Positions 11,803 through 55,860 of a stretch of DNA of 64,000 nt are shown here, piece after piece. Both the position numbers and the translations under genes were made by a program. A model generated the notes under the pieces. The model was not told the DNA's origin and searched no databases. It was given only the letters and a program-made list of their open reading frames with translations. The DNA comes from Trypanosoma brucei (lineage: Eukaryota), in assembly GCA_000002445.1 (NCBI GenBank), contig CP000068.1, forward strand, positions 1,088,001 to 1,152,000. Direction: 5' to 3'. Positions within the stretch are counted from its first letter, which is position 1. Each line of letters opens with the position of its first letter.

Positions 11803-11814
11803 GGGGGGGGGGGG
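11803..11814 (+). repeat. Homopolymeric G12 tract inside the strand-switch region.
   Basis: The tract is read directly from the sequence: 'ataataGGGGGGGGGGGGtaaagg'. Confidence 0.9.
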
Positions 11815-12670: not shown

Positions 12671-12682
12671 CCCCCCCCCCCC
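12671..12682 (-). repeat. Homopolymeric C12 tract, which is G12 on the minus strand, inside the strand-switch region.
   Basis: The tract is read directly from the sequence: 'ccattCCCCCCCCCCCCgctttcag'. A T14 run lies ~55 bp upstream at 12605-12618. Confidence 0.9.
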
Positions 12683-14068: not shown

Positions 14069-14091
14069 TGTGTGTGTGTGGGGGGGGGGGG
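14069..14091 (+). repeat. (GT)6 followed by G12, ~345 bp upstream of the SMC3 ATG.
   Basis: The element is read directly from the sequence: 'ctgtggtgtgtgtgtgGGGGGGGGGGGGaagg'. Confidence 0.9.
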
Positions 14092-14384
14092 AAGGCCGTG
14101 TGCCGCGCCTGCTAGCACACCACAGCAGGTAACCATGCGCGGACGTTGCTTACACCTTGGTAGCTTCACTATCATTTTGCTGCTTAATGGTACCGTTTGT
14201 TAATTACCTTCAAGCAATGAGATAACCTTCTTATTACTGTTTTGTTTAATGTTGTCTTTTGTTCCACATCCTAAGCTTCTACATCAGGAGAGTGGTGTAT
14301 GTTGTTGCGCTGACTTTGTACTTTCCCCCTTAGACTGCACGGTTGCCAACATGAAATAACCTGAACTGATTGTTTAACATTACC

Positions 14385-14417
14385 GTTTGTTTTGTTTTTT
14401 GACTACCCTCTTTCTTA
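14385..14417 (+). promoter_or_regulatory. Polypyrimidine tract with an AG dinucleotide; candidate trans-splice acceptor region for SMC3.
   Basis: The tract is 'tttgttttgttttttgactaccctctttcttAG', 19 nt upstream of the ATG at 14436. This matches the usual trypanosomatid architecture, where an AG dinucleotide follows a polypyrimidine tract. Confidence 0.45.
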
Positions 14418-14435
14418 GACCACTTACAGGATACT

Positions 14436-32371: not shown

Positions 32372-33624
32372 CACGGGTACCGTCAACTTTTATGAGACTT
32401 GGGAGGAATACCTGGGGTGGGAAACGAGAAGTAGCCTCCTCTTCCCCAAATTCTTTTTGTTTCATCTTAAACGTTTGCCAACGTGAGGAAATTTCTGTCA
32501 CTCAAGCTAGCTTGGCGAGGCGGTTCTTGATTACTGTTGTTTGTGCCAGTACCGCGAGGTGTAGTTAGGTTAACGTGCAGGTAAGGGCCCCTGCATGTTA
32601 TTCCTAGCTTTTATTTTTGTGCTTATTTCATGGAGGTAGCGCGTGTCTTCATACATTGGTTTATGTGAATGTTCTTTGTAAATTCATTTCCCTTTACCGC
32701 CCTATTTATTCCTTTACCAATTTTGAGGATTAACCTACGACACGCGTGTTTGTTGATCATTCACTCTTTTTATTTGGCCTTTTCTTCTATCAGTTTTACT
32801 GTTAGGTACTGCGTACACTCGATGTTTTTGTGTATGTGTGTGTGAAGCGAGTAGGCGTCATGACGGGTTGAGCGGGAAGATCAAATTTGAAACTTTCCGT
32901 TGCTTTCCCATTTTGTCCAATTTCTTCGTGTTATTGCTCAACACACCAACTTGCTATTTCTTTGACTTGTCTTTTATCGCTTCGTGTTGCTTCTCGTGTA
33001 GTCTTAGATTGGGTTTAAGGCGGCAGAGTAGGTCCGAAGTTATGATTGCCGGCGGTGGTGAGTTTGTAGTGAGTGCATCTCCATGGTCCCCTCGCTAAAG
33101 AGCTGCATTTCGCCGAGAGTGAACAAAAAAAAACCAGTGTTTTCGCTCGTATAGAGCAGCTCCAGATTAAGTGAAGTGCGCGCCGTTATGGGTTCATTTG
33201 GGTAGGTTTTTCTGTTTTGAAGTTGATTCACCGACGCTGAATGAAAAGAATGCGCTTTCGCGTACCAAAGTGTTTCACGTTGACTTAAGCCCGGTGAACG
33301 TACGAAACTCGTCCTCCTTGGCTCGTTGACTTACTCTTCCTTTTTGTTTAAGCTGTAGTTTGACTGTTTTTTTTGTTTGCATTATATTTAACGTCAAAAA
33401 TTTTGTTTGTGCAATTGCTTGTTATTTGCTTTTTGTCCCTTTGTGAGTTGCATTGTTTTTTTTTTTTTGGTTTGAGTCGCGTTTTTCTCATTATTTCCAC
33501 AACACGAACTATTATCATTTGTTGCACTGGCTGTCAAAAGTGACCTACAGAGTAATAGTAGGAGACTAAATCAGAAGCACCCGTAGAGGAAGATAGCGTG
33601 TGTTGAAAAGTGAGCGCGGATCGT

Positions 33625-40665: not shown

Positions 40666-43600
40666 ATGACGGATGCAACTAAGATGGCTGGCCAACTTCT
40701 GTTCCAGAACACGTTGGCAGAGGTAGTGCGTAAGTTGCGCTCCAGTAACGAGAGCGAAGCGGAGGTGATTGAGCAATGTATTGCCGACATCAAGAGTGAG
40801 GTCACTTCCACTGTTCAGAGCGTTAAGGTCACCGCAGTGTTGAAAGCCGTCTACTTTTCCATGCTCGGCTACAGTGCAACATATGCTGCTTTCAACATCA
40901 TTGAGGTTATGGCGGACAAGATGTTCGGATACAAACGTATCGGATATATGGCGGCATGTTTAACATTCACTCCGAAAACAGAGGTTCTCCCGTTGCTTAC
41001 AGCTCTGTTGAAACGCGATCTTTCCAGCACTAACCAGTACGAGGTGGGTTTTGCGCTTTACTGCATTTCCACTGTTTCCTCTCCGGACCTCGCTAGGGAC
41101 CTTGTAGTGGATGTGGTGAACTTATTGAGCCATCCGCGTAATTACGTTCGCAAAAAGGCGGTTCTTAGCCTCTACCGCATTTTTTTTGAGTACCCCGAAT
41201 CACTGAGACCAACCTACCCTCGGCTAAAGGAAAAGCTCGACAGTAGCAGTGAGCGGTGTGACAATGACCCGGCTGTGAGAGGTGCTCTGGTGTGCGTTTT
41301 GTGTGAACTGGCCAGACGTAATCCGGCCAGCTTCTTAGGTCTAGCGGTTCCTTTCTTTTCCATGTTGTCAACGATACAGAGCAATTGGACATTGATCAAG
41401 ATAATAAAGGTTTTTGGTTACTTCGCTCCTCTTGAGCCTCGGCTGGGGAAGAAGCTTGTGGATCCGATTATTCGTATTGTTCAGACAACAGGTGCAAAGT
41501 CTGTACGTTACGAGTGCATTCTTGCTGTGGCCAACGGAATGAGCAAAACACCCTCACTAACGAAGATAGTCGCAGAGGAGCTTAGAGTTTTTGTAGAGGA
41601 TAGCGATCAAAATTTGAAGTATTTGGGCCTTGACGCCATGTCTCGCATGGTTCGTGACAATGCAAAGCTGTTGGGCGGTCATCGTGATGTAGTTCTAGCA
41701 TGCCTTGATGACATTGACACAACTATCCGTCGTAAGGCCCTTGAGGTTCTGAGTGGCCTTGTGACAAAAAGAAACTTCGTGTCAACCATCAATAACATGA
41801 TGCATCGGTGTGTGCGGCTGCCTCCTGATGAGGAATGGTCTAACCGCGTATTAGCGACAGTAATCGAAGTTGCTCAAACTGACGATTATAGTTACGTGCA
41901 GGACTTTGAGTGGTACGTAAAGATCCTACTAGACATCAGCCTGGTGAACCTCTCCACCTACCAACACGGTGCCCTGGTACAGAAGGAACTTGTGACTGTA
42001 CTGACAAGAGTGAACGCGGTACGGCAGTTTGGTGTTAACGAGCTCTCTCAGCTACTGTCGAACACTAACTTACTTAAAAGTGATCCATCCCGTTCCTCGC
42101 AGTGGGAAGTGTTGAAGGCGGCGGCCTTTCTCTGTGGAGAGTATCCTTATTGGCTTCAAGACAAACGGCGCACATGCGAACTATTGTTGAGCGAGCGGAT
42201 TTCTTTACTAAAACCAGAAGTGCAAGTTGTTTGCGTCACTGCGGTGGGGAAGATTGTAGCATACATGCACAAGCCATGCCAGCGACACCTCGTTTTGGTG
42301 AATGGCGAGGAGGAGATACCATTACCAGAGGATTCCCTAACATTCGAGGAGTTGCGCGCTTCCATTCTCCAAACAGAAGCCATCACTGACAGCAACGGGA
42401 CGGCGAAGGTGGTTGGAGCCACCGGCTCCATCTCTAATCGGCACGATGTGGAAAGAAAAAATCTATTAGGCCTCCAGTTATTCCGTCACAGCGTCCATCC
42501 AGACGTTCAGGAGCGGGCAAGCATGATTTTGTATCAGCTCAATGTCGACCCCGATATTGGCCCTCTACTATATGAACAGGAACTCCTTCCGGTTGCCATC
42601 GGTGCACAGGAGGCCGTGGAGCCACCGGAAGGATTGAATCTTGATGAACCATTTTGCAGTCACTTACCAGCGGGGTTGTCTCCATCTGACAGCGAAGAAG
42701 ATGGAGCGGAAAATGATGAAGACCTTTACTATGTGGACGGCTATGATGCTATTGTTGCCCGCGAGCAGCGGCGGCGGGAAGAGGCCCGACGTGGCGAGGT
42801 TGCTCCGTTTTATATTAAAAATGATGCCTTATCACGGGATCAACTTTCAGAAGAGTTGCATTCCGCTGTCAGTGCTGCCCCGGCTCCAAAGACGTCAACG
42901 TCGTTTTACGTACCACAGAAATCTCAGGTAATCAATCGGTATCTGTCACGTCCCAAGAATTATGATGCTGCGGCTCATGGGCAGCGACGAATTCAGGATG
43001 AGGACGTGGATGAGGCAACGAAGAAGTTTCGAAACGTAGATGTCACACGGTCACTAGCACCAGATGAAAGATTGCCGGAGCCTATCCCGTATGGGAGGCT
43101 TCAACAAAGTGCTACCACCGAGGGTACTGCGGCGGCAGCGGCTGCTGCAGCTGCTTTGGATTTCATGGTTGACGAATCGTTTGATCCCCTCGTACTTTTG
43201 GAGGAAAAATACCTGCGCGTGACCGCATTTGTTCTTTCCTGTCGCGTGCGGAAGGCGGGCACCCAAATTACGATGGCCGTAGAGATATCAAACCTTGCAA
43301 GCAGCAGCAGCATGCGCAACGTTTCGCTGCGTTTCCAACCTAATAATGACAACTATACGACGGAGCGAGTGCGGCTGGAAGCAGACAAATCTCAAGAGGC
43401 CATCACAGGTGCTAATCGTCCAAAAACTGGTAGGGGTGACAATAAGAACGCTGTTGGTGAAGGTGGTGACGGTGACAAGGAAGTGGAGGAAAGTGACAGA
43501 AGCATATTCGTTTCAAAATGCATGAAGGGGACTACGACATTGCGGACGAAGATGCTTCTGACGTTCTCTGGATCACTTCCGCCTTCACTTACCGAACCCC

Positions 43601-44049
43601 TACTGTTTAGTTTGCTGTACACGCGAGAGAAGAAACCAACTGAGTCATTACTACCAATGCCCTTGAGTTATCGATACTTTGCCAAGTCCCATGTGGACAC
43701 GACTTCAGTAGAGTTTATGCAGACAATAATGGCAAGACATCTCTCTGAATCCCCTGTGCTTACGTGTTTTGTGGCTGTGGCCGCAAGTTGTGTTCCACTT
43801 GTACTTCCCGCTATACAACAACAACTGCGGTTGAGGCCAGTTGATATCTTTAAAGATGCGGCTTCCTTCTATAGTGTACTGCAATCCCGAAAATCCGCAG
43901 CTAACCACGCACATGTCGCCGTGGTGCTGCTAGAAGATGAGTTAGAGGGAGAAAAGGGCATCAGTATTGCTGTGAAGTCGGAACACACTTCTTTAGCGGA
44001 GCTTCTGGCCCAAGAAATCGCAAAACTCTTGATGACGGCCACGTCGTAG
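40666..44049 (+). CDS. AP-3 adaptor complex delta subunit (delta-adaptin).
   Basis: The ORF has a true ATG. Its N-terminal 500 aa are collinear with metazoan AP3D1: 'MLGYSATYAAFNIIEVMADKMFGYKRIGYMAAC', 'NYVRKKAVLSLYRIFFEYPESLRPTYPRLKEKL', 'LARRNPASFLGLAVPFF', 'NWTLIKIIKVFGYFAPLEPRLGKKL', 'FVEDSDQNLKYLGLDAMSRMV' and 'FEWYVKIL'. The central acidic segment and the divergent C-terminal ear are also present. Confidence 0.92.
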   Translation: MTDATKMAGQLLFQNTLAEVVRKLRSSNESEAEVIEQCIADIKSEVTSTVQSVKVTAVLKAVYFSMLGYSATYAAFNIIEVMADKMFGYKRIGYMAACLTFTPKTEVLPLLTALLKRDLSSTNQYEVGFALYCISTVSSPDLARDLVVDVVNLLSHPRNYVRKKAVLSLYRIFFEYPESLRPTYPRLKEKLDSSSERCDNDPAVRGALVCVLCELARRNPASFLGLAVPFFSMLSTIQSNWTLIKIIKVFGYFAPLEPRLGKKLVDPIIRIVQTTGAKSVRYECILAVANGMSKTPSLTKIVAEELRVFVEDSDQNLKYLGLDAMSRMVRDNAKLLGGHRDVVLACLDDIDTTIRRKALEVLSGLVTKRNFVSTINNMMHRCVRLPPDEEWSNRVLATVIEVAQTDDYSYVQDFEWYVKILLDISLVNLSTYQHGALVQKELVTVLTRVNAVRQFGVNELSQLLSNTNLLKSDPSRSSQWEVLKAAAFLCGEYPYWLQDKRRTCELLLSERISLLKPEVQVVCVTAVGKIVAYMHKPCQRHLVLVNGEEEIPLPEDSLTFEELRASILQTEAITDSNGTAKVVGATGSISNRHDVERKNLLGLQLFRHSVHPDVQERASMILYQLNVDPDIGPLLYEQELLPVAIGAQEAVEPPEGLNLDEPFCSHLPAGLSPSDSEEDGAENDEDLYYVDGYDAIVAREQRRREEARRGEVAPFYIKNDALSRDQLSEELHSAVSAAPAPKTSTSFYVPQKSQVINRYLSRPKNYDAAAHGQRRIQDEDVDEATKKFRNVDVTRSLAPDERLPEPIPYGRLQQSATTEGTAAAAAAAAALDFMVDESFDPLVLLEEKYLRVTAFVLSCRVRKAGTQITMAVEISNLASSSSMRNVSLRFQPNNDNYTTERVRLEADKSQEAITGANRPKTGRGDNKNAVGEGGDGDKEVEESDRSIFVSKCMKGTTTLRTKMLLTFSGSLPPSLTEPLLFSLLYTREKKPTESLLPMPLSYRYFAKSHVDTTSVEFMQTIMARHLSESPVLTCFVAVAASCVPLVLPAIQQQLRLRPVDIFKDAASFYSVLQSRKSAANHAHVAVVLLEDELEGEKGISIAVKSEHTSLAELLAQEIAKLLMTATS

Positions 44050-45397
44050 TGGGTATTCCCACTCAAGCAAGACTTTGGTTGTTCCCTCTGATGGTGGCGG
44101 TGCTTATCTTTCTTGTTATTGGTGAAGTTGAAAAGAAAAATGGATGGAGGCATGTTGGCATGATTTTTTTTGTTTCTTGATATTACCCCGCTTGTGATAC
44201 TCGAGGTATTTGGTTTCAACTCCTCGTTCGCACACACCCTTTATTTTGCGATGGGAGTAACTGCTGTGTTTCTATCTTGGCTCATTCTTTTGTGTGTTTC
44301 TCCTTTTTCTGACGGATGGCCGCTGTAGTCATCTCATTACATCTTTTAACAAGTTTTTCATTATGTGTGGTGCTTGATTTGCTGATGCGTAAATTGTGAG
44401 TATTTTTTCTCGCATCGTTCCTTTTGGGTCTCACAAATAACGGCAAAAATCGATTGCACACGCAACAACAGCCGGTGTCTGATCCATTATTTGAGTTTCG
44501 AACCTCATCCGGCACCGGGCGTAACACTTAACGCTTTTTTGGTTGGTTGTTTGGTTGGTTCTGAGCGTGTCTGCGGAAGCGGAGGCGGGATGGTGAAATA
44601 TAAACCTCAAGTTCCCATGTGTGATACTGCTTCTTCCACTTACTCCCCGTTTATATTTGTTTTAATTTACCTTACTTTACCTTATGAATTCATTTCTTTT
44701 TTCTTTTTTTCCTTTGTTTCTTTTTTTTTTTAAAGCTTCATAGTGCTCTGAGGTGTGTACAGGAAGAAGACCCGTGAGGTTCTTCACACAATACGCCGAA
44801 AGTAATCCTTATTAATTTTTTTGTTTTGCCATTGCACTGTAGTTGCAACGGTGCTGAAAAGGCAGTAGGAGAGGAGCTATTCGGTGGTTTAGCCACTTTG
44901 ATTCTTCTACCATTTCCTTATACGGATTTTGCCCAGTGAAGAGGCGCGAAAACAAAGGGGGAAAAAAAGACAACAAGTAAAACGATTAGGAACGAAACGG
45001 TCCGTCAGGACGAAAGGAGAAAAGGAAATAAAAGTGAGAAAGAAATAGGGAAACAATTCAAGGAGAGTGTACGAAAGGAAACTCGCGGAAGAGTTTGTCA
45101 CCATTATATCTATTTTTATACAAAACAAACGAAGAAAGGGTGAAAATTCACCTGAAACGAAGGAAAACTGCAATTACAGGACAAGAAGAACTGTCCAGAA
45201 GTAGAGAGAAAGGAAAGGAAAAGGGGAAGTATCATATATATATCATTTCACAGCTTCTCTTCTTTTCCGTGAACCAACGGAAGTGAACGTTTGGGGAAAG
45301 CAAAAAAAAAAAAGAAGGGAGTGTAAGGGATCCCCCTTCAAAGAAAAAAAAAGGAAAAAAGAAAAGGGATCCAAAGTGTAGTGTTCACACATTTGTA

Positions 45398-46735
45398 ATG
45401 CAGTCGTCAAGTTTTGCTGGAACGGGGGTGTTTCCGCCCCCGCCAGCTTTCTTGCGAGGCAACAACTCCATTAGGACAGGAAAGCGAGTGGGGCGCCGTC
45501 ATCATCATTTCACTGATGAAAACGTTGTGGACCTTCGTAGTATTGAAACTGGAGTGGAATGCAGCACTCGTATGGGACACAGTCGCAGTAACACAGCAGC
45601 TGAAGATCCTCCATTGCGTGCGCGCCGTCGTATCCCACATGGCAGTAACCCACCAACAAAGATATTAGACTTTCTTTTCTTGGGTGGCGTTAGTGATGCA
45701 ACAAATCCTGAGTTCCTCCGACGTGAAAATATCGTGACCATTCTGAACGTCTCACGAGAAGAATATTGGTCTGTGGACAAGGGAATTACGATACATCCTT
45801 TTCCTCTAGAGGACAACGCGGAGGAAAACATCCGGAAGTTCTTCTCACACACCTACAGGCTGCTGGAGGCTGCGCGCAGTGCGTATTACAGCTCAAAAAG
45901 GCAATGCGAGCGGTCAACCTCAACAAATGACGCCGCCACCAATTCAAATCTCGATTACCACAACGGTAACGAGAACGGTAGCGGCTGTAGTGCAGGGACT
46001 AATGTTGTTAATGGTTACTGTGAGGGCAGTAACGGTGGTACTAGTAGTAATATTAACAACTCCATGAATGAAGCAACTGACAATTGTGCGATTAGTGCTT
46101 CTCCTGCCCGGCCGCCTTGTGTGCTCGTGCATTGCCGGTACGGCATCAGCCGCTCCGTAACGATTGTGCTTGCTTATCTCATGCGTCGTAACGGATGGTC
46201 CCTTAACGATGCTCTGCAATACGTCATGTGCCGACGACCGCATGTGGAACCCAACGTTGGTTTCATGAATGTTTTGCTTTCGTTTCAGCGGGATATGGAT
46301 CCACAGAAACGAGACATCCAACGAAACTTGCTTCCTATTGTAGTTCGGAACCTTCCCCCTAATACATCGTCGTCTGCCGTGCATAAATTCTTTGAAGACC
46401 GCGTTGGTTGTGTCCATAAAGTGGCCACTTTTCCATCTCGTGTTGCCGCAGGAAATTCGACTCGAGAAAATACTGATGGTAACAGCAAGGATATTAGTGA
46501 TGAGAGCAGCACCAGTGATTGTAATGATGAAATCAGTTCAGGTGCGATGTGGCTTGTGGTGTTTGCAACGCCGGACTCCGTACATTTGGCCCATCGTTTA
46601 TATCATAAGCAACCGGATTTCTTTGCGCCACTCGGTGTTAGTGAAGGGCGCCGCGTGAAATTAACAGCTCTGAGCAAACTTCATCGATCCCCACGTCCCA
46701 TCACTGGAGGGGAGTCGTTGGCTAATGAATCCTGA
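45398..46735 (+). CDS. Dual-specificity protein phosphatase with N- and C-terminal extensions and an Asn/Ser/Gly-rich insertion.
   Basis: The ORF has a true ATG. The catalytic P-loop is 'VHCRYGISRSVTIVLAYLMRRNGWSLNDALQYVMCRRPHVEPNVGFMNVLLSF' (HCxxGxxRS). The upstream 'ILDFLFLGGVSDATNPEFLRRENIVTILNVS' is the DUSP start, with the D-loop Asp in 'PLED'. Confidence 0.8.
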   Translation: MQSSSFAGTGVFPPPPAFLRGNNSIRTGKRVGRRHHHFTDENVVDLRSIETGVECSTRMGHSRSNTAAEDPPLRARRRIPHGSNPPTKILDFLFLGGVSDATNPEFLRRENIVTILNVSREEYWSVDKGITIHPFPLEDNAEENIRKFFSHTYRLLEAARSAYYSSKRQCERSTSTNDAATNSNLDYHNGNENGSGCSAGTNVVNGYCEGSNGGTSSNINNSMNEATDNCAISASPARPPCVLVHCRYGISRSVTIVLAYLMRRNGWSLNDALQYVMCRRPHVEPNVGFMNVLLSFQRDMDPQKRDIQRNLLPIVVRNLPPNTSSSAVHKFFEDRVGCVHKVATFPSRVAAGNSTRENTDGNSKDISDESSTSDCNDEISSGAMWLVVFATPDSVHLAHRLYHKQPDFFAPLGVSEGRRVKLTALSKLHRSPRPITGGESLANES

Positions 46736-46739
46736 ATTG

Positions 46740-49700
46740 GAAAAAAAAGAAAAAACTCGATACGAAACGAAAAGAGAAAGGAGGGAGGGGAAAAAAAAAA
46801 GAATATCACAAGGAAAGCGCTAACGGTGGAGTGGACGGTGATCACTGAATTTATAACATGATGCAAGCGGTGTATCACCCGCAAGCGGCAAAATTGACTG
46901 TGCGCTGAGAAAATCTTTCCTTTTCTTTTTCTTTTTCTTTTTTCGTATTTATTTCTGTTGTACTTCAACTCTAAGGGATATGGGGGTTATGTGTGTGTAT
47001 GTGTCTATGCGTGTGCGCGCGAAAATAGGGAAAAACTATAAAGGAGCAAATAGCATATGATCCACAGAAAAGAGGAAACGCGGGTTCAAAAGCGAGGAGA
47101 AGCGTGTGGGCAAGCAACCATTTGAAAGAAACAAAGTACGACAAGAAAAAATAAAAATAGAAACAAAATAAAATGGCCAAATAAGGGGGAGGAGGGAAAT
47201 CAGGGGAAATTAAATTTTATTTATCCCATGAAAAATTTGCGTGTCTATGAGACCGAAGTACATGCAAGTTGTTGTTGCTGTTGCTCTTTTTTTTTCTTTT
47301 TTTTGAAAACATGAGTGAATTATGAATGGAGAAAAGTAGGCGCAAGATGCGTGTGGCTGATTCGTGCCGACGTTTGTATTTTGTGTATCTTTACACCCGT
47401 TTCATATTTTAATGTTTGAAAATTAATTCTGTTTTCAGTTGATGAGGTGTCGTCTGTGTGGGCGTATATACCTTTCTCTTATCTGTTTTTCTTTTTTTTT
47501 TTTGAGAACAAAATGAAATGGAAAGATGAAACGAAAAAAAAAGAATTTTACAAACGGACGACAAAACAAACAACAGAACAACAATGGCAGCTGTTCACAA
47601 ACGCAAAAAAACACGATAAATAAACGGATGTTTAAGTGTGTGTGTGTGTGTGAGAGAGAGAGGTGGGGAAATGGAGAAAGTTAACGTGAGACGTAAAAAT
47701 GTAAATGGGGTGATGTCGAAGGGGATTATGAACGCCTCCATGCGTGGCTTTATTATTATTATTATTTATTTACTTATTTATTTTAGTTGTAATGACTGAG
47801 GGAATGGAGATAAATTTCACACCAGAGGATGATGGGAATATGAAGGAAAATAAATAAATAAATGAAAATATAAAGGGGGAAATGTGCAGCGGAATGGTTA
47901 ATTTGGATGGAAGAAATCGTAAAATGATAAAGAGAAAGAGAGAGAGAGAAAAGAAAACTTGATTAAAATAAATAAATGGAGCGAAACAAATAAATGATGT
48001 GCAATTCGAAATCCTCTACCTTCTCATTGTGTGAATTCCTTTTTCTCAACCATCTTCTTATTCACGTTTCTACCCCCTTTTTTTTTCATTGTTTTGTTTT
48101 TTCGTTTGTTCCTGTTCCTTTTTTGCCTTTTTTTTGTTTTCTGCTTTCTTGTATAAATGTCCGAAAGGCGGACAGGTGAGGGATGAGTAATGAAAACAAA
48201 AGGTAAACAAAACAACTTTATCATCATTACAATGTCATAAACACCAAAAATAAAATAAAATAAAAAAACACGCACAAACACAAATATTCAAGCGGGCAAT
48301 TAACCACGTGGAGTGATAAGGGCACATATAAAGATAGAAATATATATATATATATTTCTTTATTTATGTCTCTTTGTATTTGCGTGTGTGTGTTTTTTTT
48401 TGTTTTACTCGTGAGGTTTATATGCCCTTTCTTTTTTTTCTTTTCCGTCAGGTGATGGAAAACTCCTCCTGTGTTTATTATTGCTTCAATGTTGTGGTGT
48501 AAACATATTCGATATGTAAAAGCAAATACGTTCAGGTGTTTTCTTTTTCCCTCCTTCTTCTTTTTTCTTTCTGTCCATTTTCTTTTTTCTTCTTCTTCTT
48601 CTTTATATTTTTCTCATTTTTTTCATAGCAATGAAAATGATATGCGTGATGAAGAACATACAGTGCGAGAAGATGAAATAAGAAAAGAAAGGAAATGAAA
48701 AGAAAAGAAATGAGAGAAAATGTTCGGAAGTAAAAAAAAAACAACAAAAAATATTTTGTTTGTTTGTTTATTCCCCCACTCACAAACTGACGTTTGTCGG
48801 ACTTTCAATTTCCCCCATTTTTTCTTATTTTACGTGTGTTGCTGAACTCATATTTGTGATTTTTTATTATTACCATCACCATTACCATTTTTCTTTTATG
48901 TATGTTCGTTCCCGTATTTTATCCCCCATCTCCTTTCTTCTTTTTTCTTTTTTTCACTCCGTTGCGTTTTCTAATTTCTTTTTCTTTTTTAGGTCCGCTG
49001 CCGTCGGTGTTGTTTACTCGATGCTGCACCTCCGTTTCACAACACTTTTCTTCTTTCTGGGATGTCTCACCTTTTCCCTTTTTTTTTTATTTTAATAAAA
49101 AAAAAATAAAAATATCCCGCACTCCTTCCAATGGTTCCATTGATGTCTCGTTTATTTTTAAAGCGGGGCGTTTATTATTATTGTTATTATTATTATTATC
49201 TTTGATTTAAAAATTTTACTCATCTTTTTTGACAGCTTGGACTCCTCATTTACTCACACGTGCGTGTCCTTTTTGTTTTTTTTCTCCCTTCTTATTGTTC
49301 AATTTGATTTTTTCAATCTCTCTACGTTTTTGCTTTATTTTCCTTTTATTTTTATTTTACTGATCTTTGTTTTTCGGATTGTGTTGGTGGGAAGTGGTTT
49401 TTGTTTCTTTTTTTTTTTTTGTACGTCTGTTCTTGTAGTATTTCCCTCTCTTCTTCTTTTTTTTTCTTATTTGGTTTTACCATCAATTAATTATTTACTT
49501 CGGTCATTAATTCACTCCAACAATTATCCTTTCCTTCCTTCCTTCCTTCTTTGGTACCTTTTCTTTTTACCGTATTTTCATTTAATTGTGTTTTTTTTTT
49601 TGGAAAGGCCGAAGATTTTTTTTTTTTCCGCTCCCTCTTTTTTTTTTTTAGTTGGGTTTGTTCCGTGACAGAAATCTTTTTTTTTCTTTTTCTTCCCCTC

Positions 49701-52700
49701 CCCTTCTTTTGACCTAACAATAAAGAAAAGGAAAAAATAAAAATTATATATATATTTATATATTTATATATTTATATATTTATATGGTAAAGATGAATAA
49801 AATAAAATGAAATGAAAACAAAAAAAAGCAGAATGAAAAGTGATTCCACCTTTTACTTTCTTTCCTCTACAACATTTTTTTTAAAAAAATGGTAAAATAG
49901 CATTGTAAAAACGATAACATTTGATATTATTAATGTTGTTATCACTTTTAACATTATTATTATTATTATTATTTTCATTAGTGATATGAAATGATAAAGT
50001 AATGATTAATGCCATTACAAATTATCAGTTGTTATTGTTTTTCAAAAAAAAAGTCTTTTTTTTTCCTTTCCCTCCTTTTTTTTAAAAAATAATTATTTCC
50101 ATACAAATAATATTGTTTTGTTGTTTATTTATTTATGTGCATGTGCGTGTTTGTGTGTATTAATATCATTTAATTTATGATGCACCAGGGGAGGGGAAAT
50201 AACGTTTTTTTTTTTTAGTTGGATTTGTGCTGCGCCTCTCTCGAATTCACGCCGCCGCTATCATTTAATGTACGGCAGAAAAAATATATAAATAAATATA
50301 TATGAATATATAATTATATACCAGAAAAGAGGGGGAAAATTTTAAAAAAATGTTTATGGGTGAATGAATCGTTAATCAAAAGCACACAAAAAACAAGGCA
50401 TGATTAAGAGAGATTATATATATAATATATATATAATCATCAGTACTTGGTCACTTTTCTTTTTTTCTTTTTTATTCATTATGATTAATATTGTTTAATA
50501 TCTGTTTGTTTTGTTGTTGTTTTTTTTTTTCTTGCGTGCGCGTATGTGCGGCAAATGAAGAAATTAAAATAACCATCGTGAGAGATGAGAATTAAAGAAG
50601 GACAAAAAGACGAAAGAAAGTAAAGGAAAAATACATTTGTTTTTTTTTTATTAACAAAGGAAAAAAAAATCCTCGCGTTCATTTATTATTTAGTACGTGA
50701 ATAAACTCAAAGGTACCAATTCTTCGTGATGTATTTCTATATTTATTTCCTCCTTTTTTTTTCTATGCCTTTTTGTTTTTTCCAAAACTTCACGTGACCT
50801 TCTTTTTGTTTTTTTTGCTCTCTTTTCTGTCTTTTTTTTTTTTTTTGAAAAAAAAAACTCCCTTTTATTTATTTCTTTGGAAATGAAATGAAGAAATAAA
50901 ATAAATACATCAACAAATAAATAAATTAAATTGTGGATTAAATTGCTCAAGAGTGTAAAAGCGTCGGGAGCGCAATTATGTGTGCAGCTGAACGCAAGCA
51001 GGTTTGAAATGGAAAAAAAAAGACAGAAAAGAGTAGTAAATAAAATAAATAATGAAACTGAAGTAAAAGTGAACTGAAGTGAAAATGAAATGAAATGATT
51101 AGCCATTGGAACTTATAAAGAGGAGAAAAAAGAAAAAAAGGAGGGAAAGAAGGAAAAGAAAAAAAAGAAGTTTCCATTATATTGAATTATGCGAGAATAA
51201 ACTTGCAATTTTTATTTATGTATTTAAGTGCGTGTGTTGGTGGATTTTAAAATGTACGGCTGCGAAGCGGGTGGAAAACGAGCGGAAAGCAATAAATATT
51301 AAAGAAAAGAAAAGAGAGAGAAAAAAGAAGAGAGCACCGATTTCTCAAATAAATAAATAAATAAATAAATATATATATGTTTACCAAAATATGCACGAGA
51401 GAAAAGACATTTATAAGCGATTCCCCCAATTTAAATAAAAAAGGAAAATAGAAGGAGAAACTATCAACACACACACACGCACAGAGAGAGAGAGAGAAAG
51501 AGAGAGCAACAAACAAAGAAAGAAAATGTATATAATATTATTACTGTCGTTAGGAATGGAAGGATACAATTTTTTTAAAAATTTTTTTGTAAGTCTTTAT
51601 GTGTTTTAATGTTCCATTACGTGTTCTTGTTTGTCATATTTCCCCCCCCTCTTCCTCTTCTTACTTTTGGATTATTCTTTTTTGTATGATGAAAGGAGTA
51701 AAATACAAGTAGGAAGAGAAAAAAAATAAAAAAAACAAATAGAAGAAGAGAGGAAGTGAAATAATGGAAGCAGTAAAAAAAGAAAAGAAAAGAAAAGAAA
51801 AAAATTAAAATTCTTTTTCTGTTACTGTTTTTCCCTTTTCCGTTTTTTTTTTAATATGGACTCTCTCATCATTATCGCCTTCCCTCCTTTCCTTCTATAT
51901 TGATTTTTTTTGTACAATTCTATTGTTCTTCGTCTTCCTAAATATATTCTTACTTTTCTTTACTTTTTTACTTTTATGTTGTTCCATGCTCTTTTTTTTC
52001 CCCCTTTTTTCGTTTCATTCCACTGTTTCATTGTGCCGTGTCATATCACTTTTGCAATTTATATAAATATATATGAAATGATGGTTGCACGAGGGGATCT
52101 GCAATGGTAGTAACAATAAGTGTTTTTTTGTTTTTTTTTAAATAAATAAATAAATAAATAAATATATATATATATATATATGAAAGAATAAACTTGATGA
52201 AGGAAAAACTAGTTTTTTTTTGTGTGTGTGTGAGTGTGCGTGTTATGGTCAAATGAGTGTGAAAGGGAGGGGGAGGAGGAAATATTTTTAAATTACACTC
52301 GAGTGGATTTATAAATCAACAAATAAGTGGAGTTATTTGAAGAAGTGAACACTAAAAGAAAACGCGAGGATGTGGTGTGTATTGCGTCTTAACATAAATA
52401 TATGTGATTGCATGTTTTGTGTTTTTGTGTTTTTGTGTGTACATGTGTGTTTATATGCTTATCTCCTGTAAGCACAGAAAACAACGAATTGCAGAATGAT
52501 AAGTTTGTTCATTTATCTACTCGTTCATAACTGGGGGTCATGGCTACAAATATAAACATTTTATATTTTTGTTTGTTTGTATTTATACACATGTATGCAT
52601 TTTAGCGTAAATGTGTTTTGGCGCGTGCGCGTATCCATGAGGGGAAAATGTACACCAAAACATTTATAGTTAGAGCGAGTGAAAAGAAAAATTAGTAGAA

Positions 52701-53450
52701 AATTACAAAAATAAGGGAACATATATAAAAAAATAAAGATATATGTAGTAATAATAATTATTATTATTATATTGCTTTATCATTATATTATTTAATATTA
52801 TATTGTTATGAAGAGTAAAATCTTTTCAAATTATTTTTCTGAAGTGAAGAAGGGTCAAAAAGCAAACGATGCAACCCATTAAACACCATCGGGGAATTAA
52901 CCATTCCTTGTTTCTCTTTTTTTTGTTTTGTCTAGTAGGGAGTTGTTGGTGGTGAACGTTTCGAAACAAACCATATCTTTTTTTTTCTTTTTTTACTTTA
53001 TGTCCCACTTTACCTTTTTTTTTTGTTTTCTTCTCTCTGGTTTGTTACTCACCTGGCAATATGTGATGCACAGCTCAGCCGTGTTTTCACGCACAACTCC
53101 TTTTTTTTAAAAAAAAAAATGCATTCATTTGTATGAAGATCGCTGCTGATTTGTTGCTTCACTTTACGGGGGCATCAGCCTCATTTTATGTTACTCCTTT
53201 TTATTTTTTTTTTTATTATTCCAAATATGTCACATTGCTCTTCTTCCCTTTTTTTTTTTCTTCGTGTGTGTGTATGTTTGTTTCGAATTAAAATTTACCT
53301 TTTGTTACGTGTGACATTTCTCGTATTCTTCCAACTCTGGCGGAAGGAAGAGGAAACTGACGAAAAAAAAAAAAAGTGAAACCTCCCTCCCGTAGGTGCC
53401 TTATAGCGCTTGGGTGTGGAAATAGAAATACCGATAATTAGATTTTTAGA
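46740..53450. repeat. ORF-free low-complexity spacer of ~6.7 kb made of alternating purine-rich and pyrimidine-rich blocks with embedded microsatellites.
   Basis: Plus-strand A/G-rich blocks lie at about 46740-47700 and 50880-51540. Plus-strand T/C-rich blocks lie at about 47990-49700, 50400-50880, 51590-52060 and 52900-53390. Microsatellites include (TTATT)n at 47755-47785, (TTA)n at 49165-49200, (CCTT)4 at 49538-49553, (TTTATATA)4 at 49750-49790, (AAAT)6(TA)9 at 52139-52181 and (AT)n at 48343-48358. Homopolymer runs are frequent. The only ORFs translate to poly-F/L/K junk. Confidence 0.85.
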
Positions 53451-54686
53451 ATGGAAAAAGTAACGCCAACTTCCCTCGCCAACGCATTCCTCGCTACCGC
53501 TGGCATCAGTGCGCCGATGTCATCTTCTGGGATTCGTGGCTTGTCATTGAGGTCAGTTCGCGAAACTGTTCACTGCGCAACGACACAAACCACTTCAGCT
53601 CCACCTCCGCCTGCCAACTGCCAGCAACATCAGCTCCTTAACACAACGGAAGATAAATGCAACGCGATATTTGCAGAAGTGGAGCTCCTCAGCAAGTGGT
53701 TGCAACACGCCGTGGAGAGTCGAGCACATGTGGAACGTGAGGCCTACGCACTGCTGCAGCAGGCAGATGTAAAAATACAGCATTTGGAGGATACGGTACG
53801 TCAGAAAGAAATGGAATTGCTTTATATGAGGGGGGCAATGGAAAGTTTGAGGACGCGTGTGGAGTTTTATGAGTGCAGGGAAAGGAGAATTGAAGGTGAC
53901 GATGATGATGCTAATTTTCCTCTTCGACGTGAAGCAGATTTCAAGGGTGCTGCGGTGAGAAAGGTGGTTATAATGGGGGAGAATAACACAAACGATAGCT
54001 ATTGCAGCAACCGTATGGGTAGAGGAAATGGTGTAATGTCCCCTGCTGATTTTACCGTGGACTCGACGGAACAATTAAATGCAGGCAAATGCGTCGACTT
54101 GGGTACCACCGCCACAACTTGCAACAGTAACGGAGTTGATAATGCCAGTGTATCTTCTCCCGCAGAAACTGGAGTTGGAGGCCGGTCTCGTGTAGGTCAT
54201 AGCGCACTAAGTTGGGTGAGATATCTTTTAGAGCGCTGCGTTTCCAATAGCGGCAAAGACGGTGCGAGTGAAGGTGCGGCGTCGATGAAGAAGAAAGGAG
54301 AAGGAAATGACCAACTGGCCGATGCGCTAACGATGCTGACAACTTTACAGTGTCAGTATGCTGACCCTAACGGTGATCTTGTGATGATGAACTCCCTTTG
54401 CACAAAGTTCTCGAATTCCATCGTAGCCGTGGCAGAGGAGCTAAACACAGCGCTTCAGATACCGTTGAAGCGGGCCTCAAACACAACTGATTCTCTGCAA
54501 ATATCGCAAGCTGCTAAAGTTGTTGAACACCCCGAGTCCGCGGCAGAGGCGTTACCATCGTCGAATCAGGAGCCGATAATGCAATGTAGAAAATCAGTTG
54601 TGGAGGAAAATCTTCAGCTCCTGCAAAGTTTGATGGCAGTGGAATCATCATCACGGGAGGCGTGGAGTACCCTCCAGAAATATTGA
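53451..54686 (+). CDS. Hypothetical protein with an N-terminal coiled coil.
   Basis: The 411-aa ORF has a true ATG. 'KWLQHAVESRAHVEREAYALLQQADVKIQHLEDTVRQKEMELLYMRGAMESLRTRVEFYE' is heptad-like. The rest is Ser/Ala/Gly-rich. Confidence 0.45.
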   Translation: MEKVTPTSLANAFLATAGISAPMSSSGIRGLSLRSVRETVHCATTQTTSAPPPPANCQQHQLLNTTEDKCNAIFAEVELLSKWLQHAVESRAHVEREAYALLQQADVKIQHLEDTVRQKEMELLYMRGAMESLRTRVEFYECRERRIEGDDDDANFPLRREADFKGAAVRKVVIMGENNTNDSYCSNRMGRGNGVMSPADFTVDSTEQLNAGKCVDLGTTATTCNSNGVDNASVSSPAETGVGGRSRVGHSALSWVRYLLERCVSNSGKDGASEGAASMKKKGEGNDQLADALTMLTTLQCQYADPNGDLVMMNSLCTKFSNSIVAVAEELNTALQIPLKRASNTTDSLQISQAAKVVEHPESAAEALPSSNQEPIMQCRKSVVEENLQLLQSLMAVESSSREAWSTLQKY

Positions 54687-55004
54687 AGCAAATGTGGAGA
54701 TGTGTTTGTCTCTAGTCGCTGGATTCATGGAGAAAGTTTCATGTGCCGCTTGTCGTCATTGCTTTTAGCAGTGATAATAAGGGGCAGGTGTTTGTTTGGG
54801 CATAGAGCTTGGGCACATGGCGTTTTCTGGGGTTTAACACCGTGAGAAAATGGCAAATGCGGCGGGTAATTTTGCTTTATTCTATTTTGCTTCACTTTTC
54901 GATACGTCGCGTGGAGGGCCCCCCCCCCTAACCGGTAGCCGTGTAAAACCAACAAGTAGCGATCCGCATCACCCAATACGCATTCACGCATATATGTATT
55001 TTTC

Positions 55005-55028
55005 ATATATATATATATATATATATAT
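55005..55028. repeat. (AT)12 microsatellite.
   Basis: The repeat is read directly from the sequence. Confidence 0.9.
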
Positions 55029-55860
55029 GCAAAATGTGCGTGAGGAAAGAACTCGGAAGGTTTTGTCGATTTCATGTTTCCCTAGTAGCGCTCGCATTTT
55101 ACTTCTGCTACTAACATTTGAGAATATTTAAACAATATTTATCGCCCCTCACACTGTCCACCCGCTTGCTTCCCGTTAGTTTTGAAAGGTTTTGTCCGTT
55201 TGTGTAAGCAGGGGAATAGGGGTGGAGAGGGTTTTGCTCGAAAATTATCTATAGAGAACTGAGCGGACGTTACTGGTACTGACTTGCTATGTCCGGCAAA
55301 CTGCAATGCTGAGCTGTCGCCCGCAACATTGTTTGTGCATTCGTGTTTTCCTGCACCATCTTTCTTTCCCTTTTGTTTTAACACTTTTATTATTATTATT
55401 ACTATTGTTATTGTTTGTCACGTGGTTTCGGGGCTACCTTATACAGTACAAATCCTCGGTGTACATTTGCTTCGCTGCTTGATTGAAATGGACTTACTTG
55501 TGGGTCCTTTGTTTTGTTATAAGTGTTTTGCGCTTAATATTTGTTATTATTTCCTTCTGTTCGGCGGTGTTTTTTTTTTTATTCGTCACTGAGTTCAGAG
55601 AGTTTGGCAGACGACATATCTTGTTCAGCTGCCCCTCTCTCATTACGGTGGTTACTATCACATACAGCACTCCCCTCTGTTCTAAGCTTTGCTGCTTTTT
55701 GTGCTACTTTGTTGCGATTTATATTTACCCTTATCCTCTGTCATCATTTTTGTCGCAACGTCTCCGCATTTACTGCCTCACCATATAAAAGGTACGCTGC
55801 AGCAAAAAAAAAAAGACGTGGATCAGGAGGGGAAAACGAAGTGCGGTCTGAAGGCACTTC

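What the first reader, a model, noticed from the sequence alone, without database searches (positions are those of the whole stretch)
46740..53450. A 6.7-kb ORF-free, strand-asymmetric low-complexity spacer inside a unidirectional polycistron
Other intergenic gaps in this window are 0.5-2 kb. Here 6.7 kb separates the DUSP stop at 46735 from the next ATG at 53451. No credible ORF exists on either strand. The region is built from alternating blocks that are strongly purine-rich or strongly pyrimidine-rich on the plus strand, each 0.5-1.7 kb, joined by AT microsatellites. Such homopurine/homopyrimidine asymmetry favours R-loops and triplex/H-DNA. The pyrimidine blocks could act as oversized trans-splicing polypyrimidine tracts. 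The purine blocks on the sense strand are atypical for trypanosome UTRs.

Three plausible explanations are (i) an exceptionally long regulatory 3'UTR or 5'UTR, (ii) an internal Pol II termination/re-initiation site within a same-strand cluster, which in T. brucei carries H3.V/base J and H2A.Z, and (iii) an expanded simple-sequence region that is structurally variable between isolates.
Basis: seen in the sequence. Interest (0 to 1): 0.55.

Follow-up and report, generated by a model that had tools for sequence, protein, structure and literature searches.

The report
Very long trypanosome phosphatase 3′ UTR
The 6.7-kb gene-free stretch is real, but it is best read as the unusually long, low-complexity 3′ untranslated region behind a Trypanosoma brucei phosphatase gene, which is a known kind of trypanosome feature and not a new genetic element.

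Summary
The window is T. brucei TREU927 chromosome 5 (window coordinate + 1,088,000). The gap 46736-53450 lies between Tb927.5.3620, a kinetoplastid-specific dual-specificity phosphatase (DUSP), and Tb927.5.3630.

- The gap is 6,715 nt. Other same-strand gaps are 0.12-2.1 kb.
- GC is 30.5%, against 40-48% in the other gaps.
- 18.5% is simple repeats.
- Purine-rich and pyrimidine-rich blocks alternate far beyond shuffles.
- There is no ORF beyond chance, no conserved ORF, no tRNA, no Rfam family and no dispersed repeat.

Published maps place the Tb927.5.3630 splice acceptor at 53347, giving a 104-nt 5′UTR. They list no novel transcript in the gap and show one Pol II unit from Tb927.5.3510 to Tb927.5.3990. 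A published mRNA length of 5,308 nt implies a 3′UTR of at least about 3.3 kb.

The gap length is stable in three T. brucei-group genomes (6,672-6,715 nt). The orthologous gap is the longest local gap in five other Trypanosoma species (1.7-3.2 kb), but not in Leishmania.

Best reading: 3′-UTR territory of the DUSP mRNA, possibly with an internal processing site near 50.0-50.2 kb. An internal transcription start and large length polymorphism are not supported. Interest is low.

The parts
44736..45397 (+). 5'UTR of Tb927.5.3620 (662 nt, purine-rich, completely AUG-free)
   Evidence: Published splice acceptor chr5:1132736 equals window 44736 and is preceded by AG. It has 0 ATG, against 13.4 +/- 3.4 in shuffles.
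45398..46735 (+). [quoted passage not shown]
   Evidence: Pfam DSPc, E = 7e-27. Identical to XP_845032 of TREU927. Gene ID from PMC2443814.
46736..50043 (+). Proximal 3'UTR (about 3.3 kb). Contains a purine-rich block at 46.7-47.9 kb and a pyrimidine-rich block at 48.7-49.6 kb.
   Evidence: Published 'filtered mRNA length' is 5,308 nt. Subtracting the 662-nt 5'UTR and the 1,338-nt CDS leaves 3,308 nt. The end point is my arithmetic, with an uncertainty of about 100 nt. Composition.
50045..50188 (+). Candidate internal processing module: A9 run (50045-50053), 30-nt polypyrimidine tract (50054-50083) and the first downstream AG (50187-50188), so a candidate acceptor exon would start at 50189
   Evidence: Sequence. 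The inferred poly(A) site to acceptor distance is 146 nt, against a published median of 142 nt with IQR 123-178. Conserved in three T. brucei-group genomes. Use of the acceptor is inferred, not shown.
50189..53205 (+). Distal segment (about 3.0 kb). Either the extension of a long 3'UTR isoform (about 6.47 kb in total) or a trans-spliced non-coding by-product RNA. Contains a purine-rich block at 50.85-51.55 kb.
   Evidence: No ORF, ncRNA family or conserved block. No novel transcript listed in procyclic forms. The distal end is predicted from acceptor 53347 minus the 142-nt median spacing.
53238..53263 (+). Polypyrimidine tract serving the Tb927.5.3630 splice acceptor
   Evidence: 26-nt pyrimidine run. 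The first AG after it gives exactly the published acceptor at 53347.
53347..53450 (+). 5'UTR of Tb927.5.3630 (104 nt)
   Evidence: Kolev 2010 Table S12: acceptor at chr5:1141347, 5'UTR 104 nt. AG immediately upstream.
53451..54686 (+). CDS of Tb927.5.3630 (hypothetical conserved protein, 411 aa)
   Evidence: Identical to XP_845033. Syntenic, weakly similar orthologues in five other Trypanosoma species.

Best explanation
The gap is transcribed, non-coding 3'-untranslated territory of the Tb927.5.3620 (DUSP) mRNA. It lies inside one Pol II polycistron.

Pol II reads through it. The distal boundary is set by trans-splicing of Tb927.5.3630 at 53347. By the known coupling of splicing and polyadenylation, this places a poly(A) site near 53.2 kb and allows a 3'UTR of about 6.5 kb. 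A second, internal processing site near 50.0-50.2 kb probably yields the 5.3-kb mRNA recorded in published tables.

Inferred, not shown: the AU-rich, low-complexity sequence, with its (AU)n runs, purine tracts and about 30 polypyrimidine tracts, serves as a binding platform for RNA-binding proteins. These would set the stability and translation of the DUSP mRNA. The internal polypyrimidine tracts would be kept from acting as splice signals by masking proteins, as described for DRBD18 on other long trypanosome 3'UTRs.
For: Shown here or in published data:
- The window is TREU927 chr5. All eight published splice-acceptor coordinates tested fall immediately after an AG once 1,088,000 is subtracted.
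- The Tb927.5.3630 acceptor is at 53347, so only 104 nt of the gap belongs to the downstream gene.
- The gap has 145 sense ATGs, while the real DUSP 5'UTR has none.
- Kolev 2010 lists no novel transcript on chr5 between 1,121,395 and 1,167,126, no alternative UTR processing for this gene, and one transcription unit from Tb927.5.3510 to Tb927.5.3990.
- Antwi 2016 lists a 5,308-nt mRNA, which implies a 3'UTR of about 3.3 kb. It also gives about 4-5 mRNAs per cell and half-lives of 29 min in bloodstream forms and 58 min in procyclic forms.
- There is no ORF beyond chance, no Pfam, Rfam or tRNA hit, and no dispersed repeat.
- The gap evolves like the neighbouring intergenic DNA. Between TREU927 and gambiense it shows 1.9 substitutions per 100 bp, against 1.8-2.3 in other gaps and 0.6-1.2 in CDS. 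Between T. theileri and T. melophagium identity is 0.60, against 0.47-0.59 in other gaps and 0.69-0.85 in CDS.
- The orthologous gap is the longest local gap in all six Trypanosoma species examined: 6.7, 3.2, 2.9, 2.7, 2.6 and 1.7 kb, against neighbours of 0.4-1.3 kb.
- Its purine/pyrimidine profile correlates between clades. Mean r is 0.55, against 0.25 for the gap compared with non-orthologous gaps.

From the literature:
- T. brucei 3'UTRs reach 5 kb or more. RBP10 has 7.3 kb and the DRBD12 mRNA is 8.4 kb.
- These UTRs are low-complexity, carry (AU)n runs and many internal polypyrimidine tracts, and are typical of regulatory proteins (PMC8982893, PMC9380746).
Against: - No RNA-seq coverage, Northern blot or poly(A)-site record could be retrieved for the distal 3.3 kb.
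- The only length on record (5,308 nt) covers just the proximal half, and the poly(A) position near 50,043 is my arithmetic, not a listed coordinate.
- Kolev's poly(A)-dispersion table has no row for this gene.
- No regulatory activity has been shown. The mRNA is similarly abundant in both life-cycle stages studied, so there is no evidence of developmental control.
- The RBP10 motif UAUUUUUU occurs once on the sense strand, against 3.8 expected.
- GC of 30.5% is well below the other gaps in the window. I could not show this to be typical of other long T. brucei UTRs.
Confidence: 0.68

Rival explanations
1. The gap holds two RNAs. One is a DUSP mRNA with a 3'UTR of about 3.3 kb. The other is a separate, trans-spliced and polyadenylated long non-coding RNA of about 3 kb (about 50189-53205) with a function of its own, such as a grumpy-like regulator or a cis-regulator of its neighbours.
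For: - The published mRNA length of 5,308 nt ends near 50,043.
- That point is followed by an A9 run, a 30-nt polypyrimidine tract and an AG. The resulting poly(A)-to-acceptor spacing is 146 nt, matching the genome-wide median of 142 nt.
- Polyadenylation is coupled to downstream trans-splicing in trypanosomes, so a poly(A) site here implies a spliced downstream product.
- UTR-internal and 3'UTR-derived spliced RNAs are documented (Kolev 2010; PMC9380746).
- More than 1,400 lncRNAs have been reported in T. brucei (PMC9200285, abstract).
Against: - No novel transcript is listed in the gap, and this gene is not in the table of alternative UTR processing, in procyclic forms.
- The distal half has no conserved block, no structure signal beyond (AU)n palindromes and no Rfam family.
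- It diverges at the same rate as the proximal half.
- Existence of a by-product RNA would not by itself show function.
Confidence: 0.2
2. The gap is a neutral spacer. Replication slippage expanded simple sequence in the T. brucei lineage. The RNA is transcribed and discarded or carried passively, and its length and composition have no regulatory role.
For: - 18.5% of the gap is simple repeats, against 1-10% elsewhere.
- It has 8.2 indel events per kb between subspecies, against 4.3-5.2 in other gaps, all in homopolymers or microsatellites.
- Its substitution rate equals that of other intergenic DNA.
- No sequence is alignable between species.
- The T. brucei gap is 2.1-4 times longer than its orthologues, and its purine profile looks like a stretched copy of theirs.
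Against: - The position is the longest local gap in all six Trypanosoma species, which span three clades.
- The order of purine and pyrimidine blocks is retained.
- Length is stable to within 0.6% across three T. brucei-group genomes.
- The same gene also carries a strongly constrained, AUG-free 662-nt 5'UTR, which suggests tight post-transcriptional control.
Confidence: 0.1
3. The gap is an internal Pol II termination and re-initiation site within the same-strand cluster, marked by H3.V/base J and H2A.Z.
For: - The size and low GC stand out from the other gaps.
- GT-rich tracts are present.
- Internal starts do exist elsewhere in the genome (Kolev 2010 Table S14).
Against: - Table S14 lists Tb927.5.3510 to Tb927.5.3990 as a single unit starting at the divergent strand-switch region. 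It lists no 'Internal' entry here, although it does list internal sites elsewhere on chr5.
- There is no tRNA or snRNA gene, which often accompany such sites.
- The downstream gene has an ordinary acceptor and a 104-nt 5'UTR.
Confidence: 0.04
4. The gap hides an unannotated protein-coding gene, a decayed gene or retroelement, or a small structured RNA gene.
For: - The T. b. gambiense annotation calls two ORFs, of 116 and 103 aa, in the gap.
- A 230-nt stretch (52476-52705) is invariant among three genomes, longer than the 142-nt 95th percentile of simulations.
Against: - Both gambiense ORFs are frame-broken in TREU927 and/or T. equiperdum and are low-complexity.
- No ORF exceeds chance, none is conserved and none has a Pfam hit above cut-off.
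- There is no Rfam hit near a gathering score and no tRNA.
- There is no tandem or dispersed repeat of retroelement type.
- The invariant stretch is simply the part of the gap that lacks microsatellites.
Confidence: 0.02

Closest known systems
Very long regulatory 3'UTRs of T. brucei mRNAs, e.g. RBP10 (about 7.3 kb) and DRBD12 (mRNA about 8.4 kb) (PMC8982893, PMC9380746)
   Same: - Multi-kilobase, ORF-free stretch directly downstream of a CDS inside a polycistron.
- AU-rich and low-complexity, with (AU)n runs and many internal polypyrimidine tracts that are not used as splice signals.
- Belongs to a signalling or regulatory protein.
- Bounded by the next gene's splice acceptor.
   Different: - For this gene only a 5.3-kb mRNA length is on record. 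Continuity over the full 6.5 kb has not been shown.
- No reporter, RNA-binding-protein or developmental-regulation data exist, and the mRNA is similarly abundant in bloodstream and procyclic forms.
- The RBP10-binding motif is not enriched.
UTR-internal or 3'UTR-derived trans-spliced non-coding RNAs (Kolev 2010 Table S3; products seen after DRBD18 depletion, PMC9380746)
   Same: There is a plausible internal poly(A) site, polypyrimidine tract and AG module at 50.04-50.19 kb with canonical 146-nt spacing. This would split the region into an mRNA and a downstream non-coding RNA.
   Different: This gene is not in Kolev's list of alternatively processed UTRs, and no novel transcript is listed in the gap. 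The internal acceptor is inferred from sequence and arithmetic only.
Internal Pol II transcription start regions in T. brucei polycistrons (H2A.Z/H2B.V/H4K10ac sites; 'Internal' entries of Kolev 2010 Table S14)
   Same: It is a large non-coding interval between same-strand genes and contains GT-rich tracts.
   Different: It is not listed as a unit boundary, has no tRNA nearby and has no evidence of bidirectional 5'-triphosphate RNA.
R-loop-prone inter-CDS regions of T. brucei (PMC6294496)
   Same: It is rich in polypyrimidine and poly(A) tracts, the motifs found under DRIP-seq peaks at UTR and intergenic sequence.
   Different: Nothing is specific to this locus. The property is genome-wide, and in T. 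brucei it is inversely related to GC and AT skew around genes rather than driven by them.

Membership tests
Long trypanosome 3'UTR (RBP10/DRBD12 type) | Lies on the sense strand directly after a CDS, within one Pol II unit, and ends at the poly(A) site coupled to the next gene's splice acceptor | tested here: met
   Acceptor of Tb927.5.3630 at 53347. Single unit Tb927.5.3510 to Tb927.5.3990.
Long trypanosome 3'UTR (RBP10/DRBD12 type) | The mature mRNA physically contains the region (RNA-seq continuity, mapped poly(A) site, Northern size) | tested here: inconclusive
   The published mRNA length of 5,308 nt covers about 3.3 kb of the 6.6 kb. There is no record for the distal half.
Long trypanosome 3'UTR (RBP10/DRBD12 type) | No independent gene (ORF, tRNA, snoRNA or other ncRNA) inside | tested here: met
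   No novel transcript in Kolev Table S7.
Long trypanosome 3'UTR (RBP10/DRBD12 type) | AU-rich, low-complexity sequence with (AU)n runs and many unused internal polypyrimidine tracts | tested here: met
   - GC is 30.5% and 18.5% is simple repeats.
- There are 13 overlapping (AU)>=5 matches, against 0 in shuffles.
- There are 30 pyrimidine runs of at least 14 nt, of which only the last serves a mapped acceptor.
Long trypanosome 3'UTR (RBP10/DRBD12 type) | Demonstrated effect on mRNA stability or translation (reporter assays, RNA-binding-protein binding) | not testable with these tools
   No experimental data were found for Tb927.5.3620. Only one paper in the library names the gene in its main text.
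Internal Pol II start/termination region | Listed or detectable as a transcription-unit boundary (5'-triphosphate RNA, bidirectional initiation) | tested here: not met
   Kolev 2010 Table S14 has no boundary between Tb927.5.3510 and Tb927.5.3990. The data are from procyclic forms only.
Internal Pol II start/termination region | Chromatin marks (H2A.Z/H2B.V/H4K10ac for starts; H3.V/base J for stops) | not testable with these tools
   No ChIP data are accessible.
Internal Pol II start/termination region | Frequent association with tRNA, snRNA or rRNA genes | tested here: not met
   No tRNA in the whole window. No Rfam hit near threshold in 44-56 kb.
Independent trans-spliced lncRNA | Own mapped spliced-leader acceptor and poly(A) site defining a discrete RNA | tested here: inconclusive
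   A sequence module with canonical geometry lies at 50045-50188. No novel transcript is listed in procyclic forms. The nanopore lncRNA table could not be read as far as this coordinate.
Hypervariable expanded simple-sequence region | Large length differences between isolates | tested here: not met
   Lengths are 6,715, 6,672 and 6,687 nt in TREU927, gambiense DAL972 and T. equiperdum OVI. The largest indel is 44 nt. Only three assemblies were compared.
Hypervariable expanded simple-sequence region | Excess of microsatellite or homopolymer indels relative to other non-coding DNA | tested here: met
   8.2 indel events per kb, against 4.3-5.2 in neighbouring gaps.

The most novel reading that the evidence does not exclude
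The purine-pyrimidine-purine-pyrimidine layout has been kept across three Trypanosoma clades without any alignable sequence. It could mark a conserved internal processing switch near 50.0-50.2 kb in T. brucei. The switch would toggle the DUSP mRNA between a short-UTR and a long-UTR isoform and release a trans-spliced non-coding RNA of about 3 kb. The strand composition itself, through purine tracts and masked polypyrimidine tracts, would be the selected feature.
Probability: 0.2. Interest if true: 0.45.

Novelty: new member of a known kind. Interest (0 to 1): 0.2.

Why it matters
Trypanosomes control almost all gene expression after transcription, so very long 3'UTRs are where regulation is thought to reside. 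A UTR of up to 6.5 kb on a kinetoplastid-specific phosphatase, paired with a 662-nt AUG-free 5'UTR, marks Tb927.5.3620 as a probable tightly controlled signalling gene. It would be a reasonable test case for how internal polypyrimidine tracts are ignored by the splicing machinery.

The locus does not point to a new kind of element. It does not open a new question beyond those already studied on RBP10 and DRBD12. Showing that it is not an internal transcription start and not a hypervariable region removes the more exciting readings.

Tried and rejected
- Hidden genes. Six-frame ORFs were compared with shuffles, scanned against Pfam and searched by tblastn against four orthologous gaps. Nothing was found. 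The two gambiense-annotated ORFs are rejected as frame-broken.
- Structured or known RNAs. An Rfam E-value scan gave only sub-threshold miRNA-like or bacterial sRNA noise. ARAGORN found nothing. A sliding RNAfold scan gave a minimum z of -4.2, at an (AT)n palindrome.
- Repeats or mobile elements. Only low-complexity families were found, with no tandem array and no dispersed repeat.
- Purine blocks masking the polypyrimidine tracts by base-pairing. Best duplex energies are no better than with internally shuffled purine tracts (z = -1.4). Rejected as unsupported.
- Cross-species sequence conservation. blastn with 7-nt words gave only low-complexity matches. The T. theileri versus T. melophagium profile shows no CDS-like block.
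- The T. brucei gap as an ancestral 3 kb plus a 3-kb insertion. Neither half alone matches the orthologous purine profiles (r between -0.36 and 0.09), whereas the whole gap does (r = 0.40-0.76 for four of five species). Proportional expansion is therefore more likely.
- Direct poly(A) and coverage evidence. The supplements of Siegel 2010, the DRBD18 paper and Guegan 2022 are not held. Nilsson 2010 has no entry for these genes. The Kolev poly(A) tables are cut or have no row.
- T. congolense and T. vivax loci, the closest outgroups, could not be retrieved.


Full report
**Identity of the locus.**
- The 445-aa ORF at 45398-46735 carries a DSPc domain. It is identical to the TREU927 protein XP_845032.
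- The 411-aa ORF at 53451-54686 is identical to XP_845033.
- The window is therefore T. brucei brucei TREU927 chromosome 5.
- Gene IDs follow from the literature. The adaptin at 40666-44049 is AP-3 delta, Tb927.5.3610. The phosphatase is Tb927.5.3620, and the next gene is Tb927.5.3630.
- Published splice-acceptor coordinates (Kolev 2010, PMC2936537) convert to window coordinates by subtracting 1,088,000. All eight that I checked then fall immediately after an AG, which validates the mapping.

**Observation check.**
- The gap 46736-53450 is 6,715 nt. The other same-strand gaps are 121-2,078 nt, and the divergent strand-switch region is 3,679 nt.
- GC is 30.5%, against 40-48% in every other gap.
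- 18.5% of the gap lies in simple repeats, against 1-10% elsewhere.
- The purine fraction in 200-nt windows swings between 0.21 and 0.72. Its sd is 0.139, against 0.041 in dinucleotide shuffles and 0.036-0.079 in seven of eight other gaps. The exception is the gap upstream of the same gene.
- Purine-rich blocks lie at about 46.7-47.9 and 50.85-51.55 kb. Pyrimidine-rich blocks lie at about 48.7-49.6, 51.85-52.05 and 52.85-53.3 kb.
- Microsatellites of AT, TAAA and ATT type are frequent.

**What is not there.**
- The longest stop-to-stop frame is 168 codons, within the range of composition-preserving shuffles (123 +/- 26).
- The eight longest frames have no Pfam hit above cut-off.
- No frame is conserved in the orthologous gaps of T. 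cruzi, T. theileri, T. rangeli or L. mexicana.
- The two ORFs annotated only in T. b. gambiense are frame-broken in TREU927 and/or T. equiperdum.
- There is no tRNA and no Rfam match anywhere near a gathering score.
- There is no tandem array or dispersed repeat beyond low-complexity families.
- Local RNA folding is unremarkable apart from an (AT)n palindrome.

**Published transcript maps (Kolev 2010, procyclic forms).**
- The Tb927.5.3630 acceptor is at window 53347, giving a 104-nt 5'UTR. The Tb927.5.3620 acceptor is at 44736, giving a 662-nt 5'UTR.
- The complete list of novel transcripts has none on chr5 between 1,121,395 and 1,167,126, so none in the gap.
- Tb927.5.3620 is not in the table of genes with alternative UTR processing.
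- The table of putative Pol II units gives a single unit from Tb927.5.3510 to Tb927.5.3990, starting at the divergent strand switch, although it lists internal starts elsewhere on chr5.
- Antwi 2016 (PMC4845500) lists a 'filtered mRNA length' of 5,308 nt for Tb927.5.3620. It also gives about 4-5 mRNAs per cell and half-lives of about 29 min (bloodstream) and 58 min (procyclic).
- Subtracting the 662-nt 5'UTR and the 1,338-nt CDS leaves a 3'UTR of about 3,308 nt. That places a poly(A) site near window 50,043. This is my arithmetic, not a listed coordinate.

**Sequence logic of processing.**
- Kolev 2010 reports a median distance of 142 nt (IQR 123-178) from a poly(A) site to the downstream acceptor, and a median polypyrimidine tract of 18 nt.
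- Position 50,043 is followed by an A9 run and a 30-nt polypyrimidine tract (50054-50083). The first AG gives a candidate acceptor at 50189, which is 146 nt downstream. These elements are intact in three T. brucei-group genomes.
- The mapped acceptor at 53347 lies 83 nt after a 26-nt polypyrimidine tract. It predicts a coupled poly(A) site near 53,205, which would give a long-isoform 3'UTR of about 6.47 kb.
- The gap contains 30 pyrimidine runs of at least 14 nt. Only the last one serves a mapped acceptor.
- The gap carries 145 sense ATGs (21.9 per kb). The genuine 662-nt 5'UTR of the DUSP gene has none, against 13.4 +/- 3.4 expected. The gap is therefore not a 5'UTR.

**Comparative evidence within T. 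brucei.**
- TREU927, T. b. gambiense DAL972 and T. equiperdum OVI have gaps of 6,715, 6,672 and 6,687 nt. They are 98.2-99.5% identical.
- They show 26-57 indel events per pair, all in homopolymers or microsatellites, the largest 44 nt.
- The substitution rate is 1.9 per 100 bp, the same as in neighbouring gaps (1.8-2.3) and above that of CDS (0.6-1.2).

**Comparative evidence across species.**
- The gene order ASCH, DEAD-box helicase, AP-3 delta, DUSP, [gap], Tb927.5.3630 orthologue, then genes of about 270 aa and about 800 aa is conserved.
- The DUSP-downstream gap is the longest local gap in every Trypanosoma examined. It is 3,169 nt in T. cruzi, 2,905 in T. theileri, 2,697 in T. melophagium, 2,648 in T. 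rangeli and 1,680 in T. conorhini, against neighbours of 0.37-1.2 kb.
- It is not exceptional in L. mexicana (1,400 nt among gaps of 1.4-2.0 kb) or in an unidentified trypanosomatid (835 nt).
- No sequence is alignable between clades.
- T. theileri versus T. melophagium shows no CDS-like conserved block.
- The length-normalised purine profile (purine, pyrimidine, purine, terminal pyrimidine) nevertheless correlates between clades. Mean r is 0.55, against 0.25 for the gap compared with non-orthologous gaps.
- The whole T. brucei gap matches the orthologous profiles, but neither half does. This suggests a proportional, roughly two-fold expansion.
- Two other orthologous gaps show similar profile conservation. 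This looks like a general property of trypanosome inter-CDS regions, and the pairwise tests are not independent.

**Mechanism.**
- Shown: the interval is inside one transcription unit and is non-coding. It belongs upstream of the 53347 acceptor, and published data assign at least about 3.3 kb of it to the DUSP mRNA.
- Inferred from the established coupling of polyadenylation to downstream trans-splicing: a distal poly(A) site near 53.2 kb must exist for whatever RNA precedes Tb927.5.3630. If the site near 50.04 kb is real, a spliced RNA should start near 50.19 kb.
- Inferred by analogy with RBP10 and DRBD12 (PMC8982893, PMC9380746): the low-complexity sequence is a platform for RNA-binding proteins, and internal polypyrimidine tracts are masked by proteins such as DRBD18.
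- I put 0.68 on '3'UTR territory of Tb927.5.3620' and 0.2 on the distal half being an lncRNA with a function of its own.
- I put 0.1 on a neutral slippage-expanded spacer, 0.04 on an internal Pol II start or stop, and 0.02 on a hidden gene.

**Comparison with what is known, and novelty.**
- T. brucei 3'UTRs have a median of about 390-400 nt and range up to about 6 kb in the first maps. They reach 7.3 kb for RBP10.
- The longest ones are said to belong to RNA-binding proteins and kinases. A signalling phosphatase fits that pattern.
- This locus is an extreme but typical member of a known class.
- The R-loop idea is not specific to it. DRIP-seq peaks in T. brucei sit at inter-CDS regions genome-wide, with polypyrimidine and poly(A) motifs (PMC6294496).
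- The internal-start idea is not supported by the published unit map.
- The length-polymorphism idea holds only at the scale of single repeats.

**Limits.**
- I could not view RNA-seq, spliced-leader, poly(A) or ChIP tracks.
- The poly(A) position near 50.04 kb is derived, not read from a table.
- The transcription-unit and novel-transcript maps are from procyclic forms only.
- Only three T. brucei-group assemblies were compared.
- T. congolense and T. vivax loci were not retrievable.
- Several relevant supplementary tables are not held or were cut.

Noticed in passing
window 44736-45397 (+): The 662-nt 5'UTR of Tb927.5.3620 contains no AUG at all, where shuffles give 13.4 +/- 3.4. It is purine-rich (R = 0.63). 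This is about five times the median 5'UTR length and indicates strong selection against upstream start codons.
   Followed up: partly
window 46736-53450 versus L002:11516-14684, L003:11735-14639, L004:2110-4757, L007:5649-7328, L008:11729-14425: Length-normalised purine/pyrimidine profiles of the orthologous gaps correlate between Trypanosoma clades (mean r = 0.55) without alignable sequence. Two other orthologous intergenic regions behave similarly (mean r 0.41-0.43). Strand-composition layout of inter-CDS regions may therefore be conserved in general.
   Followed up: partly
window 10757-14435: This is the divergent strand-switch region and start of the + strand unit Tb927.5.3510 to Tb927.5.3990. 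Kolev 2010 places novel transcripts Tb5.NT.76 (10767-11397, -) and Tb5.NT.79 (12929-14315, +) in it.
   Followed up: no
window 33002-33395 (+) and 18302-20014 (+): Published novel transcripts Tb5.NT.81 (393 nt, listed as putatively non-coding) and Tb5.NT.80 (1,712 nt) fall in two other 'intergenic' gaps of the window. Those gaps are therefore not empty.
   Followed up: no
L001:12054-12404 and L001:13464-13775 (T. b. gambiense DAL972): Two 'hypothetical protein' genes annotated only in gambiense lie inside the gap. Both are low-complexity, and both are frame-shifted or stopped in TREU927 and/or T. equiperdum. They are almost certainly spurious gene calls.
   Followed up: yes
window 52476-52705: This 230-nt stretch is invariant among three T. 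brucei-group genomes, where the simulated 95th percentile is 142 nt. It is the least repetitive part of the gap, so the lack of indel-prone tracts probably explains it. No ncRNA signal was found.
   Followed up: partly
window 53451-54686: Tb927.5.3630 ('hypothetical, conserved') is very divergent. The word-seeded homology search returned only T. brucei-group proteins. The syntenic orthologues in other Trypanosoma match at only 36-41% identity over about 75 residues, plus a weaker C-terminal stretch.
   Followed up: partly
window 54982-55048: Sub-threshold Rfam matches to repeat-derived miRNA families (mir-297, mir-466, mir-3688) occur on both strands in the Tb927.5.3630 to Tb927.5.3640 gap. 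This is most likely a simple-repeat hairpin.
   Followed up: no
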